Assembly (NCBI GenBank): GCA_051294905.1
Contig: CM119372.1
Coordinates: 39,062,001 to 39,126,000 of the forward strand
Length of the DNA stretch: 64,000 nucleotides
Source: Botryllus schlosseri
Lineage: Eukaryota
Reading direction: 5' to 3'
Part shown: piece by piece, positions 55,501 through 64,000 of the stretch
Position numbering within the stretch: the stretch's first letter is position 1
Layout: each line of letters begins with the position of its first letter
The notes under the pieces: model-generated
Seen by the model: the letters and a program-made list of their open reading frames with translations, nothing else
Database searches by the model: none
What the model was told of the DNA's origin: nothing
Program-made: the position numbers and the translations under genes

Positions 55501-57574
55501 TATATGGCATGGAACACATAGGATAGTATTACGAGATTTAATGATAGGGCGTAACCTATACTTGAGACTTGGATTTTATTTGATTTTAATATAGCTTGAA
55601 CGAGAAAGATTTTTGACTTTATCAACTTTAATAATACCCACACAAATTTTACAAAGATAAAAAGGGTAATGTATTCAAGGAATTAATTTGGCTCAACCTT
55701 TTTTAGTACCATCCACAGTTATTTGTGACCAAAAATGTCATCGGCACCTATCAATCGAAAATCATCATGCAACACGAAAATGTTGGGACGCGACCCTTGT
55801 TATTGAAATTTCAAACAAGTAGGCTATCATCCAGCATCGTCGCGGTTGCCGCTGATTATTTCTGGCAATTTCAAAAGAGTTAGGCACCACCTTTCTCCTC
55901 AAAGCTCACCGCATTACAGGCCATCAAGTGTCTTCTTATGAAACAAGTGCTTGTTCCGTTACAATAACTACTATAGCACGCAGAAGGATGTCCTTGTAGT
56001 GAAGTGTAGTCAGACTGTAGCTTATGACGTACTATGAGCGTTGTTGTAACGAGATGCTTCTATCCGGAACAATAAGCAGCGACCTTATGTAGATTTTAGA
56101 TGTTAAGTTATTGCATTGTGAATAAAACTGCGATAATGTTCGAATCTGAGCAACTAACTGCTCTGCTTAGTTTCAACATGCGCCAAAAAAAGTTGCTCAT
56201 GTAAATATTCTCAGATTGCACAGAGAACGTCGAACAATGTTAACAGTAACAATAAGAAAGGTAAGACAGGTCGGGCAATTTGTTGGAAAAACTTTTTCAG
56301 GCCAGCCATTCTGCGTACTAAATGGCTACAGTAATTTCCTGCACATAAATGCAACGTCTGGCATAAGGGTATCCTAGAAAGTATAAGCAACCAACTCTAA
56401 ATTATAGAAAATAGGATATTTGGCCATTCACTTTTCTTAAAAATCCTCATGATGAGGACATACGGTAGGCGTATGTGAGGCAGAAATCGCAGTTTATTGT
56501 ATGACCCAAAGGTTTCGGATGCTCCTGTTGACCGAAGCCCTTCAAACCAACAACATAACTTTAATTAATCTGCCGCGAACTCGCTACCGTACAAAATCAC
56601 AGCTGCCAACTCTATAAAGTGCGCACAGTAAATAAACTAAATGCAATTGAATTTCGATAACCAGTGTTGGTCGCTCTAGCTCAATCGAATCTGAATGTTC
56701 ATAGCAGATTATTGATCAAAGAATGCAAATTCCTTTTTATGCGAATGGTATTTACTGATACCAAACTGTCTTGTGACACCATGAGAATCGATTTTTACTA
56801 AATTATGATTATTGTCTCAAGATAAAAATTACCTCTCATATTGCTGACTCAGATGTGCATATTCAGTGTATGTCTGGCCATACAACCGCCATCGCATAAC
56901 ACTTTTGATTTCGCGATCATAATACTGTGTCAATTATAAGTTCTCTCCTGGAAAACTACAGCATTATGCATACTCGCACGCTTGGCGCGGCTGAATATCT
57001 TATAGATCGTTATCGGTATTAACGCGTGACGGACAATATAAGGTAACAGTACATAACTATTTCGATTGGGCACAGACAGAAATCACTATATACTTTGCTA
57101 TAGTCTTGACTGGGCGGACAGATGTTGGCGAATTCATAATTTCATAATTGCTAATGCTGCACACATAGTCGCCAGCTTCCAACATAGGCCATGAGTAGAT
57201 TCTGGTGAAGGTGCCGGTCAGCATTTACCAATGTCAAGCACGCTAAATTGAGAGGTTGGGTCGCGCAACATTTTCAAATCGGAATTTGGTTAGGAACCCA
57301 TGATATGTTGCGATACCAATCATCTGTTTACTCGAACAGCACGTTTTAGAAAATATCATGGTATGGCGCCATCCCCAATATTATAAGGCCCGTACCGTTT
57401 AGTCGAAGAGCAATACGGAGAAATTGTATCGGATATGGTGAAAACACTTTGCGCGATCAGTAAACTTTAATAAAACATATGGTGGATCGTAAAAATGCCA
57501 TATTGTGCAGCTTTATTTCCGGAAATTAAAGGCATTACTATACTTGCTTTTGGAGGTGGCGAGATGGCGTAATG

Positions 57575-58814
57575 CAGGGGTTCTCAACCCGCGGCCCACG
57601 GACGCTTTTTCTGTGGCCCGCGAGATCTTTCAATGTGATCGCAATTACTACCGGTATTGTTGCATACGGTATCAATTTAGCTACTAAAGCTCTCTTATCG
57701 CTCCGTCTCTGTTTCGTTTGATTTATTCTCATTCTTTAATGTTTTCTGGTTTCTTGATATATGGTCGAGTTTAGATTCTTATTGTTCTGAATAGGTCCCC
57801 GGACAGTTCCATCTCGAGTTACACATATCACCTGATCTTAGAAAAAAGCCTTGCTAGCTAGGTCTTAGGGCGCTTAGGCTAAGCAATCCATATTTTGAGG
57901 CATTGTTGAGATTGCCGGCGACGGTAAAAACGCAGGGTTCAAAATGGCTTGGTATATCGCTAATCCTATGAAATCTGAGACAAGGTGTTCCTCCAACAAA
58001 ACGTTACTATACTGTGCGAATCTCCGCTGTTTCCTGAATTTAGCAGCAAGGAAAACTTCACCTAACAAATTTCGAAGCTGCAGTTGTCTGATTCAACCGT
58101 GACAAGAAGAGTAACAACAATTTCAGTTAATCTTTTGCTGCATGATTTGAAACACGTTGCCCCGTAGACTACTTTAACCTAGCATTGGACAAAATCTACG
58201 GACATTGCAACGCTAATTGTATTGGGGAATTCTATCCGAGTGGATAATGCTGGCTGAGCAAACGTGGGGAGAGGGGACTAGCAAACAACATCAACTTAAC
58301 AAAGCTGACTTCTGTAACTATTGGTGCCGGGCATCAGCCATGGAAGGAAAGGAGAATGGTTAATTGGTTTGCTCAGAAATTACCCCGGACATGAGACTTC
58401 TTCTTATATCACTGAGAGCCCAAAGTGACAATGGCCTATGTAAAGAAAATGTTACCGTAGTTTTATACTTGCTCGCTCACGCATTGAAACAGAGAGTTCA
58501 GTTCTCTGGTGCAAGGGTTTGAAGGTGCACATACCAACTTGGCAACGAATGCAATGCACGCTTCATGAAGGGATTTACTTGTTCCGTCGGAAGATGACAC
58601 AATCTCACTAGAAACAGCAACTGAAAGCTTACGAACGCTGTCCATTATGCTGTAGAATGCATACAAACTAAATGCCCATACACGACTGGTAAATAGGCTA
58701 TATTAGCCTAAATATAGTAGTATAGTCCACAAATATACGATTATGTTCTGCGGCCCGCAGCGCTTTTTGCTGTTAAAATGCGGCCCGTTACGCAAGGAAA
58801 GTTGAGAACCCCTG
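57575..58814. mobile_element. hAT-type non-autonomous element A (left arm of the composite)
   Basis: caggggttctcaac...gttgagaacccctg. The left flank is gcgtaatg (SINE A-box) and the right flank is gtctagga (tRNA-Pro A-box). Confidence 0.9.
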
Positions 58815-58877
58815 GTCTAGGAGTATGATTCTCGCTTTGGGTGCGAGAGGTCCCGGGTTCAAATCCCGGACGAGCCC
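58815..58877 (+). pseudogene. tRNA-Pro(TGG) lacking the first 9 nt (abuts element A)
   Basis: Begins at GTCTAGG immediately after the TIR. Confidence 0.9.
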
Positions 58878-58979
58878 GTGTCGAGATTGTAGTTTTTTTA
58901 AATCAACCACGATATCTATGAATTCCGTAGTCATTTCCAAATGAAAGTTTTTTAAAATAATTCAGACAACGAATCCGTC

Positions 58980-59023
58980 GGCTCGTTGGTCTAGGGGTAT
59001 GATTCTCGTTCCCGGACAAGCCC
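58980..59023 (+). pseudogene. tRNA-Pro pseudogene with a 28-nt internal deletion
   Basis: Reads gattctcgttcccggacaagccc; the anticodon and T arms are lost. Confidence 0.9.
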
Positions 59024-59130
59024 GTGTCGAGATTACAGTTTTTTGGTTTTTAAATTAACCACGATATCTATGAATTCACTAGTCATTTGCAAATAAAACT
59101 TTTCAAAATAATTAAGACAACCAAACCGTC

Positions 59131-61793: not shown

Positions 61794-61900
61794 GTGCCGA
61801 GATCATAGTTTTTTGGTTTTTAAATTAACCACGATATCTATGAATTCAGTAGTCATTTGCAAATAAAACTTTTCAAAATAATTAAGACAACGAAACCGTC

Positions 61901-61979
61901 GGCTCGTTGGTCTAGGCCCTAGGGGTATGATTCTTGCTTTGGGTGCGAGAGGTCCCGGGTTCAAATCCCGGACGAGCCC
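61901..61979 (+). pseudogene. tRNA-Pro(TGG) with a 7-nt insertion in the A-box
   Basis: GTCTAGGCCCTAGGGG instead of GTCTAGGGG. Confidence 0.85.
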
Positions 61980-62081
61980 GTGTCGAGATTGTGTTTTTTT
62001 TTAAATCAACCACGATATCTATGAATTCCGTAGTCATTTCCAAATAAAAGTTTTCAAAATAATTTCGACAACGAATCCGTC

Positions 62082-62098
62082 GGCTCGATGGTCTAGGG
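62082..62098 (+). pseudogene. 5' fragment of tRNA-Pro ending at element B
   Basis: ggctcgatggtctaggg followed directly by the TIR. Confidence 0.85.
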
Positions 62099-63336
62099 CA
62101 GGGGTTCTCAACCCGCGGCCCGCAGACGATTCTTTTGCGGCCCGCGACATCTTTCAATATGAACGCAATTACTACTGGTACAGTATCGTTATGGAAGACC
62201 GATGTGTCACATTTGTCGAAGAACAGTTGTTGTAACAAAGCCTAGAAGCTTCAAATGATAGCACGATAGTTTCGTCTGGAGTTATACATATCGCCTGATC
62301 TTAGAGAAAACGTTGCTAGCTTGGTTTCAAGCCCAGCAATCCATATTTCGAGGCATTTTTAAAATTGTCGACGACGTGACAGACGCATTGTTCAAAATTG
62401 ATTGGAATATCGATAAGCCGAGGAGTCTGCCAGAGAATGTGTGACTTCAATAAAAATTTAACGTAGGCCTACTGTGCGAATATTTGCTGTTTCCGGAACT
62501 TAGCAGCAAGTTCAACATCACCTGCGAAACTTCGGGGCTACAGTTGTCTGATTCAACACTCAACGAGTCAACAGTCACCAGAAGAGTAACAGCCCTCTCA
62601 GTCGATCTTTTATCGCATGTTTTGAAACACGTTGTCCCGCATAGACTACTTTAGCCTAGCATTGGACGAATCCATCGACTGCACACAGTGCACACTGCAC
62701 ACACATTGCATAGCTATAATTATCCAGGTGCTGTTTATCGGAGTGGACATATTTCCAGAGGAAATGCTGACGGGGCAAACGTGGGAAGGGGACCAGTGAA
62801 AAACAACAATCTGACAAAGCTGACTTCTGTAACTATTGGTGTAAGGCTCCAGTCATGGAAGGAAAGGGGAAGAGTTGATTGGTTTACTCAGAAATGTCCC
62901 CGAACGTCTGACTTATTATAGCACTGAGAGCTCAAAGTGATAATGACCTCTCAACGAAAATGTCACCGTAATTTTATACTTGCTCTCTCACGCATTGAAA
63001 CAGCGAGTTCGGTTCTCTGGTGGAAGGGTTTGAAGGGTACACATACCAACATGGTAACGAATAGAATGTCCGTACCATGAAAGGATTTAGCGTACTTGCG
63101 CCACTTGAAGATAGATATCCTTACAAAAAACAGCAACTGCAAACTTACGAACGCTCTCCATTATTGCTTTAAAATGCATAAAAACGTACTAAATTCTCGT
63201 ATAAGACTGGTAAATAGGCTACAGTAGCCTAAATTTAACAGCGGCTCACAAATACATGGTGATAAAGTTCTGCGGCCCGCGGCGTCTTTTAGTGGGAAAA
63301 TGCGGCCCGTTATACGAGGGAAGTTGAGAACCCCTG
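62099..63336. mobile_element. hAT-type non-autonomous element B (right arm of the composite; diverged relative of element A, same orientation)
   Basis: caggggttctcaac...gttgagaacccctg. The left flank is gtctaggg and the right flank is gcgtaatg (63337-63344). Confidence 0.9.
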
Positions 63337-64000
63337 GCGTAATGGTATAATCCAAGGCTGCAACACCAATGGGTTGCGGGTTCGGTCCGACCACGGTCGA
63401 CTCCAGCATTCCTACTTAAGTGTTGGAGATTTATCCAGACTCCTCCTCGCCATCTCATCCGTGCTAGCGGTGTTTTATAAAAAGCCTAGAAGTGGGCCGT
63501 GGGTCTAAAACTAAATAAAAGTCAGAGTCCACTGTTTCAGATTAGGACACGTCATGGACTGCTAGATTACGATATGACAAGTAAATGCTAGACTGCGAAA
63601 CATCAGTTTCAAACGTTATGATGAGCCATTTTGATAAAATATTTCATATGGGTGACAATGCGGTGTTAACGGAACCACGCAACCCGCTGCCTAAATTATA
63701 TTCACCGATACTTTCGTTAAATCATATCGGTCAACCTATATCCACTGTGCGCGAAGCTCAACGAAAATTCTGGGCTTTACTCAAGTTTTTTGAAAATTAG
63801 GATACTCCGTGAAAACAGCCCCGAAATCTTTCTTATTGGAGGATTATTCTACTTCTACTTGACAAACTGAAAATAGCGAAAAGTAAGTAAGTAGATCACA
63901 AAATATTACGAAGTAGAAGTAGAAGTAGCGAAAATCAGATCTACCACTAGTAGAGGAAAACTACTTGAGTAGATCTGAGAAAAAGTAGAAGTACTTCGTT

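What the first reader, a model, noticed from the sequence alone, without database searches (positions are those of the whole stretch)
57567..63344. A tRNA-Pro gene array moved as cargo between two hAT MITEs (composite transposon or circle cointegrate)
Seen: elements A (57575-58814) and B (62099-63336) do not have matching TSDs of their own. The two outer flanks are both GCGTAATG and the two inner flanks are GTCTAGG(A/G). Deleting the 5.76-kb block restores the uninterrupted sequence found at 45426-46347. Inference: 13 tRNA-Pro units, including at least 4 perfect genes, arrived as one insertion. Model 1 is composite (bacterial Tn-like) transposition using the outer TIRs of two MITEs resident in a donor tRNA array. 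Model 2 is that an extrachromosomal circle of the array, bearing one MITE, integrated by recombination with a MITE already in the SINE; the terminal half-genes 62082-62098 and 58815-58877 do join into one tRNA with a TSD. Either is a route for dispersing tRNA clusters in a eukaryote that I do not recall being described.
Basis: partly seen in the sequence, partly recalled or inferred. Interest (0 to 1): 0.88.

Follow-up and report, generated by a model that had tools for sequence, protein, structure and literature searches.

The report
tRNA gene array moved by paired transposons
Two different non-autonomous hAT-like transposons that sat in a proline-tRNA gene array appear to have jumped together as one 5.8-kb unit, carrying the tRNA genes between them to a new chromosomal site, a mechanism already known from maize as macrotransposition.

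Summary
A (57575-58814) and B (62099-63336) share the TIR CAGGGGTTCTCAAC. Neither has a TSD of its own. The outer flanks are both GCGTAATG and the inner flanks are GTCTAGGA/GTCTAGGG.

Removing 57575-63344 restores the sequence at 45426-46347. That site is the other copy of an 11.9-kb tandem duplication, 99.8-99.9% identical, not merely another SINE copy.

A and B are only 77% identical. A matches its own subfamily at 306 of 323 diagnostic columns and B matches its own at 316 of 323, from position 31 to about 1224. They are not reciprocal chimeras, so the circle/recombination model fails.

The best reading is composite transposition: A's left end and B's right end were used together. This is not undescribed. 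It is hAT macrotransposition, known for Ac/Ds and Tam3L in maize and diagnosed there by the same TSD logic.

The tRNA-Pro D-loop site GTCTAGGG is an insertion hotspot matching the family's target preference, and a large array on contig C1 holds many such insertions.

Verdict: a new member of a known kind; moderate interest.

The parts
57567..57574 (+). Left copy of the 8-bp target-site duplication GCGTAATG
   Evidence: It is identical to 63337-63344 and occurs once at the empty site 45684-45691.
57575..58814 (+). Element A: a 1240-bp non-autonomous hAT-like element of the A subfamily; left end of the composite
   Evidence: TIR CAGGGGTTCTCAAC at both ends. Full-length relatives are 91-93% identical. 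It differs from the A-subfamily consensus by 2.8%. It carries 306 A-type states in 323 diagnostic columns.
58815..58877 (+). 3' part of a tRNA-Pro(UGG) unit, beginning with GTCTAGGA: half of A's original TSD in the donor array
   Evidence: Rfam gives a partial tRNA match at 58813-58869, model positions 8-63.
58815..62098 (+). Cargo: a tRNA-Pro tandem array with units of about 181 bp and a 363-bp higher-order repeat; 11 roughly full-length units plus 2 terminal part-units
   Evidence: The higher-order copies are 98% identical to each other.
59131..59202 (+). tRNA-Pro(AGG), weaker score
   Evidence: ARAGORN; Rfam 44.6 bits.
59494..59565 (+). tRNA-Pro(AGG), intact
   Evidence: Rfam 53.9 bits.
59857..59928 (+). 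tRNA-Pro(AGG), intact
   Evidence: Rfam 53.9 bits.
60035..60106 (+). tRNA-Pro(CGG), intact
   Evidence: Rfam 55.2 bits.
60224..61374 (+). Element C: a third hAT-like element (TIR CAGGGGTGGGCAAAC) inserted at the same D-loop site of a tRNA-Pro(CGG) unit, with its own perfect TSD GTCTAGGG (60216-60223 and 61375-61382)
   Evidence: GGCCCG-type subterminal motifs are shared with A and B.
60375..60681 (+). Element D: a 307-bp MITE (TIR CAGTGGTTCTCAAA) nested in C, with flanks TTCTAAGG / TTCTAATG
   Evidence: Read.
61537..61608 (+). tRNA-Pro(AGG), intact
   Evidence: Rfam 53.9 bits.
61910..61924 (+). GTCTAGG-CC-CTAGGG: a 7-bp insertion at the hotspot of one unit, read as a hAT excision footprint
   Evidence: A similar variant occurs in the C1 array (L031:1317). 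The footprint reading is an inference.
62082..62098 (+). 5' part of a tRNA-Pro unit, ending with GTCTAGGG: half of B's original TSD
62099..63336 (+). Element B: a 1238-bp non-autonomous hAT-like element of the B subfamily; right end of the composite
   Evidence: Same TIR as A. Full-length relatives are up to 95% identical. It differs from the B-subfamily consensus by 2.9%. It carries 316 B-type states in 323 diagnostic columns.
63337..63344 (+). Right copy of the TSD GCGTAATG
45684..45691 (+). Unoccupied target GCGTAATG in the paralogous copy (U1) of the tandem duplication
45426..57308 (.). U1, the first copy of the 11,883-bp tandem duplication, lacking the insertion
57309..64000 (.). U2, the second copy, continuing to about 77231 beyond the window; it carries the 5,770-bp insertion and a further 2.2-kb insertion

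Best explanation
The 5,770-bp block 57575-63344 is a hAT-type macrotransposon, that is, a composite transposon in a eukaryote.

Proposed history:
1. In a donor tRNA-Pro tandem array, two non-autonomous hAT-like elements of different subfamilies, A and B, had each inserted independently. Both were in the same orientation and both sat at the D-loop site GTCTAGGR, in two different tRNA units. That site fits the family's preferred target.
2. A transposase supplied in trans paired the left end of A with the right end of B.
3. It cut out or copied everything between them: A, about 12 tRNA units and B.
4. It integrated the whole piece into GCGTAATG inside a tRNA-like SINE head on contig C2, producing one 8-bp duplication.

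The inner flanks, GTCTAGGA to the right of A and GTCTAGGG to the left of B, are the leftover halves of the two original TSDs.

Shown directly: the structure, the empty site, the non-chimeric ends, the hotspot, and arrays with the required geometry elsewhere in the genome. Inferred: the transposition event itself, the source of transposase, the donor, and the order of events relative to the insertion of C.
For: 1. Ends and TSD. The insertion begins and ends exactly at the TIRs of A and B and is flanked by GCGTAATG on both sides. The paralogous site has that 8-mer once, with both flanks contiguous.

2. A and B are abnormal for their families. Perfect own TSDs occur in 19 of 24 ordinary members, and one of the exceptions (L068) does have a TSD once its duplicated 5' end is counted. 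T at position 4 and A at position 5 are found in 19 of 19 TSDs, and both GCGTAATG and GTCTAGGG have them.

3. The ends are non-chimeric. A carries 306 A-type, 4 B-type and 13 other states in 323 diagnostic columns. B carries 316 B-type, 1 A-type and 6 other. Diagnostic columns run from position 31 to 1224. Control family members score alike. A and B are about 77% identical to each other.

4. Compatible ends. The 14-bp TIR is identical, and GGCCCG-type motifs occur only in the terminal 120 bp of A (5 of 5), B (7 of 7) and C (10 of 10).

5. Hotspot. Within the block the same D-loop site carries A, C, a footprint-like 7-bp insertion, and B. In 10 kb of the array on contig C1 (L077), at least 6 elements sit at that site. 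Units bearing a B-like element recur in direct orientation, for example 2,179 bp apart. That is the donor geometry the model needs.

6. Transposase is plausible. PF05699 (hAT dimerisation domain) gave 150 scored matches, all over the Pfam cut-off, out of 2,620 first-look candidates. Many lie in open frames of 600-934 aa.

7. Precedent. Passages of the maize White Cap preprint diagnose a Tam3L macrotransposon by the same logic: the flanking elements lack their own TSD and the outer junctions share one 8-bp duplication. Ac macrotransposons of 10-28 kb excise and reinsert (passages).
Against: - No donor was found. The best match to the block's 363-bp unit outside the block is 84% identical, on C1. 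No tRNA-L/A-left or B-right/tRNA-R junction of these elements was found elsewhere.
- No autonomous element with these termini was identified. ORFs of A and B have no Pfam match (9 of 9 without a hit), and one protein search found nothing.
- GCGTAATG is a poorer fit to the target preference than GTCTAGGG. T at position 7 occurs in 0 of 19 TSDs and C at position 2 in 3 of 19.
- A and B are each about 2.8-2.9% from their subfamily consensus, so the families are not visibly young, whereas the flanks differ from the empty copy by only 0.1-1%.
- The assembly of the block was not checked with reads.
- Only one such event was found.
Confidence: 0.75

Rival explanations
1. Gap repair with template switching. 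A resident element in the SINE was excised or broken. The break was repaired by synthesis that started from the element's extreme termini and switched to A and B in an ectopic tRNA array, copying the array between them.
For: It would give the same final structure with the same outer TSD. The terminal 30 bp on the left and 16 bp on the right carry no diagnostic differences, so a switch there cannot be excluded.
Against: It needs a resident element at the target, and the paralogous copy has none. It needs two switches, each confined to 30 bp or less. It needs the same missing donor. It has more steps than macrotransposition.
Confidence: 0.08
2. Assembly artefact. The block, or the tandem duplication that supplies the 'empty site', is a misjoin or a false duplication of two haplotypes.
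For: No read-level check was possible. U1 and U2 are 99.8-99.9% identical and differ mainly by two insertions, as alleles might.
Against: There are no Ns in the window. No near-identical copy exists that could seed a repeat-driven misjoin: the best relatives are 93% for A, 95% for B and 84% for the array unit. A misjoin would not create an exact 8-bp duplication at exact TIR ends. If U1 and U2 are really alleles, the block is still an insertion, merely heterozygous.
Confidence: 0.07
3. Circle cointegrate. An extrachromosomal circle of the array bearing one element integrated by homologous recombination with an element already present in the SINE.
For: The inner flanks match 7 of 8 and the two half-genes can be joined on paper into one tRNA.
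Against: It predicts reciprocal chimeras, but A is A-type and B is B-type along 323 diagnostic columns. A and B are only 77% identical. There is no resident element at the empty site. The 7-of-8 match is expected anyway, because GTCTAGGR is the hotspot in every tRNA-Pro unit. The GGA variant also occurs in another unit (L077:4938). The half-unit at 62082 follows the spacer type that normally precedes the pseudogene-type unit, whereas the 3' half at 58815 is of the intact type (read; weak evidence).
Confidence: 0.03
4. The array is ancestral in both copies of the duplication, and copy U1 lost the whole block by precise excision or by deletion between the 8-bp repeats.
For: The polarity of the difference between U1 and U2 is not proven directly.
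Against: Other copies of the repeat and of the SINE are uninterrupted at this position: C6:7164713 and C3:33464894 span query positions 64-423, as does L076:6480-6680. So the uninterrupted state is ancestral. Even a precise loss from U1 would only show that the block behaves as one mobile unit.
Confidence: 0.04

Closest known systems
Ac/Ds macrotransposons of maize (Huang & Dooner 2008, seen only in reference lists; Genetics 2022, PMC9910405, passages read)
   Same: Two hAT elements in direct orientation use the outer 5' and 3' ends. The host DNA between them moves, and a single 8-bp TSD or footprint marks the site.
   Different: Those events were recovered experimentally in a plant, with Ac or fractured-Ac ends of one family. 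Here the event is natural and in a different eukaryote. The ends are two non-autonomous elements about 77% identical, from different subfamilies, and the cargo is a Pol III gene array.
Tam3L macrotransposon that created the maize White Cap (Wc) locus (bioRxiv 10.1101/082677, passages read)
   Same: It is a natural event, diagnosed by flanking hAT elements that lack their own TSD while the outer junctions share one 8-bp duplication. Tandem duplication occurs at the same locus.
   Different: At Wc the donor locus (Ccd1r) is known and the cargo is protein-coding genes. Here the donor is missing, the cargo is tRNA genes, and no causal link to the neighbouring tandem duplication is shown.
Bacterial composite transposons (two IS elements flanking cargo; recalled knowledge, no call)
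   Same: Two copies of a mobile element bracket passenger DNA, and the outer ends are used.
   Different: IS elements encode their own transposase. A and B have no detectable coding capacity and must be mobilised in trans.
Ectopic recombination between transposon copies, as for Galileo and Drosophila inversion 2z3 (PMC2775673, abstract and passages read)
   Same: The TSDs of two copies of one transposon family are exchanged.
   Different: There both copies are chimeric and in inverted orientation, and the result is an inversion. Here both copies are non-chimeric and direct, and the result is an insertion with a new TSD.

Membership tests
hAT superfamily (non-autonomous members) | 8-bp target-site duplication | tested here: met
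   19 of 24 family copies have a perfect 8-bp TSD. The block's outer flanks match 8 of 8. Element C matches 8 of 8.
hAT superfamily (non-autonomous members) | Short TIRs beginning with CAG/TAG, and the target consensus nTnnnnAn (both consensuses recalled, from no call) | tested here: met
   The 14-bp TIR is CAGGGGTTCTCAAC. Among TSDs, T at position 2 occurs in 12 of 19 and A at position 7 in 14 of 19. In addition T at position 4 and A at position 5 occur in 19 of 19.
hAT superfamily (non-autonomous members) | A cognate autonomous element encoding a hAT transposase with the same termini | tested here: inconclusive
   The genome holds many PF05699 matches in long open frames, but none was linked to these TIRs. 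ORFs of A and B have no Pfam hit, and a homologue search found nothing.
hAT macrotransposon | Two elements in direct orientation, each lacking its own TSD, with the outer flanks sharing one TSD | tested here: met
hAT macrotransposon | An unoccupied target site with a single copy of the duplicated 8-mer | tested here: met
   45684-45691 in the 99.8-99.9% identical paralogous copy.
hAT macrotransposon | A donor locus, with both elements in place or with an excision footprint | tested here: not met
   No unit more than 84% identical was found outside the block. No donor junctions were found. The solo tRNA-Pro on C10 is not a remnant. Arrays of the right geometry do exist on C1.
hAT macrotransposon | Observed excision or reinsertion of the unit | not testable with these tools
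   This needs genetics or population data.
Recombination cointegrate / ectopic exchange between two copies | Both flanking copies are reciprocal chimeras | tested here: not met
   Over 323 diagnostic columns, A has 306 A-type and 4 B-type states, and B has 316 B-type and 1 A-type.
Bacterial-type composite transposon | The flanking elements encode the transposase | tested here: not met
   No Pfam match in 9 of 9 ORFs of A and B.

The most novel reading that the evidence does not exclude
In this animal the D-loop (box A region) of tRNA-Pro genes is a preferred landing site for several hAT-like families. The tRNA arrays therefore become loaded with compatible transposon ends. Macrotransposition from such arrays would then be a recurrent route, not a one-off, by which working Pol III gene clusters are seeded at new chromosomal sites. 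The target here, the homologous position of a tRNA-derived SINE head, hints that Pol III promoter elements themselves may attract the event.
Probability: 0.25. Interest if true: 0.7.

Novelty: new member of a known kind. Interest (0 to 1): 0.5.

Why it matters
Clear natural macrotransposons are few. In the 22 papers that hold the word and the 4 with the hyphenated form, the listed cases are mostly plant Ac/Ds or Tam3L, and the dipteran and fish papers in the same listing only discuss or hypothesise the mechanism.

This locus offers a clean natural example outside plants:
- exact ends;
- one TSD;
- an empty paralogous site 12 kb away;
- ends from two distinguishable subfamilies, which lets transposition be told apart from recombination.

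It also gives a concrete mechanism for how tandem tRNA gene clusters can be copied to new loci. It identifies a tRNA D-loop sequence as a transposon hotspot that sets up such events. A search for tRNA arrays or clusters together with DNA transposons and TSDs returned 4 papers, none on this topic by title or abstract. That is a limited search, not proof of absence.

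Tried and rejected
There is no read support either way. The run listing shows four runs of one sample holding 0.45-0.61 of the sampled words, and two other samples of the same organism holding 0.23-0.27. 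None was laid, so none is used as evidence.

2. The donor search failed. Unit, junction-pattern and element searches found no donor. C10:21259157 is a solo tRNA-Pro gene.

Only 10 kb of it (L077) and the 3-kb loci around pattern hits were examined. Loci for could not be cut.

4. Possible further composites were looked at. At C8 (L075), the element ending at 3550 next to a tRNA 3' half is 5'-truncated and abuts another repeat, so it is uninterpretable. At C12 (L076), a mini-cluster of two tRNA-Pro units ends in a 34-bp stub of a C-type element and begins at the hotspot, which is suggestive only. The B-type copy in L061 has unmatched flanks and was not followed.

5. A transposase remnant in A or B was sought. 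Pfam gave 0 of 9 ORFs with a hit, and the homologue search gave none. A resemblance of one B frame to a hAT transposase motif is recalled only and unconfirmed.

6. I first took the start of the duplication (45426) to be the start of a dispersed repeat. That was an artefact of where my query began and is withdrawn. The repeat extends further left.

7. Earlier notes of this scan held nothing for this genome.

8. Huang & Dooner 2008 and Wang et al. 2022 are not held. They are known to me only from reference lists.

Full report
**What is there**

The window is part of contig C2 of a 495-Mb eukaryotic assembly. At 57575-58814 (A, 1240 bp) and 62099-63336 (B, 1238 bp) lie two elements. Both begin with CAGGGGTTCTCAAC and end with its reverse complement.

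The flanks are GCGTAATG | A | GTCTAGGA and GTCTAGGG | B | GCGTAATG.

Between A and B is a tRNA-Pro tandem array, with units of about 181 bp arranged in a 363-bp higher-order repeat. I count 11 roughly full-length units plus a 3' part-unit after A and a 5' part-unit before B.
- Five units reach Rfam's tRNA threshold over the whole model: 59131, 59494, 59857 and 61537 (AGG) and 60035 (CGG).
- Two 3' parts score as partial matches.
- One CGG unit is split by a third element, C (60224-61374, TIR CAGGGGTGGGCAAAC). C has its own perfect TSD GTCTAGGG and itself carries a nested 307-bp MITE.
- Another unit has GTCTAGG-CC-CTAGGG at the same position (61910-61924). I read this as a hAT excision footprint. 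A similar variant exists in another array.

**The empty site**

The left flank 57309-57574 and the right flank from 63345 onward match 45426-45691 and 45692 onward. The two stretches are contiguous there, with one copy of GCGTAATG.

This is not just another SINE copy. The match runs on for 7,029 bp at 99.9% and then, after a second insertion in U2, continues to window-equivalent 77234. So the locus is an 11,883-bp tandem duplication: U1 is 45426-57308 and U2 starts at 57309. Only U2 carries the 5,770-bp block.

Other copies of the surrounding repeat and of the tRNA-like SINE head are uninterrupted at this position. The uninterrupted state is therefore ancestral and the block is an insertion.

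The nine differences between U1 and U2 near the site all lie within 45625-46107. The next 6.6 kb are identical. I cannot explain this clustering. A recombination tract that brought in an older insertion-bearing haplotype is one possibility.

**Which model**

A and B are only about 77% identical, with many indels. Each has many full-length relatives:
- A at 91-93% identity;
- B at up to 95%.

I aligned 16 A-type and 8 B-type copies whose ends I could locate. Three further B-type loci were dropped because one end was not found. This gave 323 columns that separate the two subfamilies.
- A has the A state in 306, the B state in 4 and another state in 13.
- B has the B state in 316, the A state in 1 and another state in 6.
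- The columns span positions 31 to 1224, and ordinary members score the same way.

So neither element is a reciprocal chimera. A crossover is possible only within the first 30 or last 16 bp.

This is the same logic used for Galileo in Drosophila, where chimeric copies with exchanged TSDs indicate ectopic recombination (passages). Here it points the other way, to transposase-mediated movement. The circle/recombination model also needs a resident element at the target, and U1 has none.

Ordinary members of both subfamilies have their own perfect 8-bp TSD in 19 of 24 cases. T at position 4 and A at position 5 are invariant. Both GCGTAATG and GTCTAGGG satisfy this.

**Mechanism**

The simplest account is macrotransposition. 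A and B had each inserted into the D-loop site GTCTAGGR of different units of a donor tRNA-Pro array. A transposase acting in trans then paired A's left end with B's right end and moved everything between them, producing a single new TSD.

Supporting context:
- GTCTAGGG is a near-ideal match to the family's target preference.
- Within the block that site was hit at least four times.
- A 150-kb tRNA-Pro array region on C1 (30.65-30.80 Mb) carries at least 6 elements at that site in the 10 kb I could read. Units bearing a B-like element repeat in direct orientation there.
- A, B and C share GGCCCG-type motifs confined to their terminal 120 bp, which are probably transposase-binding sites (inference).
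- The genome has many hAT dimerisation-domain matches in long open frames.

The target in the SINE lies at the position homologous to the tRNA D-loop. This is judged by eye, and the SINE head has no Rfam match.

**Weaknesses**

- No donor array or donor junction exists in this assembly. The best unit match is 84%.
- No autonomous partner was linked to the family.
- GCGTAATG is an imperfect target.
- A and B are typical-age members, about 2.8-2.9% from their consensus, while the flanks suggest a recent event.
I think it unlikely, because nothing near-identical exists that could cause a misjoin, and a misjoin would not make an exact TSD.

**Comparison with what is known**

It is the macrotransposon of the hAT literature.
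- Ac/Ds pairs in direct orientation move the DNA between them, and such units of 10-28 kb excise and reinsert (passages; Huang & Dooner 2008 seen only in reference lists).
- The maize White Cap locus was founded by a natural Tam3L macrotransposon, recognised by exactly this TSD pattern (passages).

What differs here:
- the ends, which are two non-autonomous elements from different subfamilies;
- the cargo, a Pol III gene array with five apparently intact tRNA genes;
- the hotspot that explains why such arrays become loaded with compatible ends.

It works like a bacterial composite transposon but is not one, because the ends encode nothing.

**Verdict**

This is a new member of a known kind, of moderate interest as a clean natural case and as a mechanism for dispersing tRNA gene clusters.

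Noticed in passing
window 45426-57308 and 57309-64000 (continuing to about 77231 in L009/L078): An 11,883-bp tandem duplication at 99.8-99.9% identity. All 9 differences near the insertion lie within 45625-46107, and the next 6.6 kb are identical. The duplication junction lies only 266 bp left of element A. Whether that closeness means anything is unknown.
   Followed up: partly
L009:6374-8610 (window-equivalent 70374-72610): A second insertion found only in U2: 2.2 kb with 765-bp inverted arms at 99.9% identity. The two alignments to U1 on either side overlap by 30 bp, implying a 30-bp flanking duplication.
   Followed up: no
G000:C1:30650000-30802000 (L025-L032, L042-L045, L077): A very large tRNA-Pro array region riddled with hAT-like elements at the same D-loop site. 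Units carrying a B-like element are tandemly amplified, with junction hits 2,179 and 2,558 bp apart.
   Followed up: partly
L068 (C13:9822461-9826586), reverse strand 1339-2690: An A-type element with a duplicated 97-bp 5' terminus, giving two 5' TIRs in tandem. The TSD GTCTAAAG matches only when the outer TIR is used.
   Followed up: partly
L076:4126-4510 (C12:14175126-14175510): An isolated mini-cluster of two tRNA-Pro units. It starts exactly at the hotspot TCTAGGGG on one side and ends in a 5' half-tRNA fused to a 34-bp stub of a C-type element on the other. It may be the decayed remnant of a similar transposed fragment.
   Followed up: partly
L061 (C16:15375459-15379568), 1447-2676: A B-type element 90% identical to B, with unrelated flanks GCCTAGGG / TTTTGTAA. 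It could be another rearrangement or a flank deletion.
   Followed up: no
L075:2146-3550 (C8:17970146-17971550): An element whose 3' end abuts a tRNA-Pro 3' half at the hotspot. Its 5' TIR is missing and it adjoins a copy of the repeat that also flanks the window's target.
   Followed up: partly
window 61365-61437 and 61901-61979: ARAGORN calls a tRNA-Pro that borrows its acceptor stem from the end of element C, and a 'tRNA-Gln' that is a tRNA-Pro(UGG) unit with a 7-bp insertion. Both are annotation traps.
   Followed up: yes
whole genome: The pattern GGTCTAGGN followed by the TIR has 94 matches at up to 1 mismatch, against 0 for the reversed control. Only 7 of the first 30 lie in a clear tRNA-Pro 5' half. 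The TCTAGG preference therefore holds genome-wide and across several TIR variants.
   Followed up: partly
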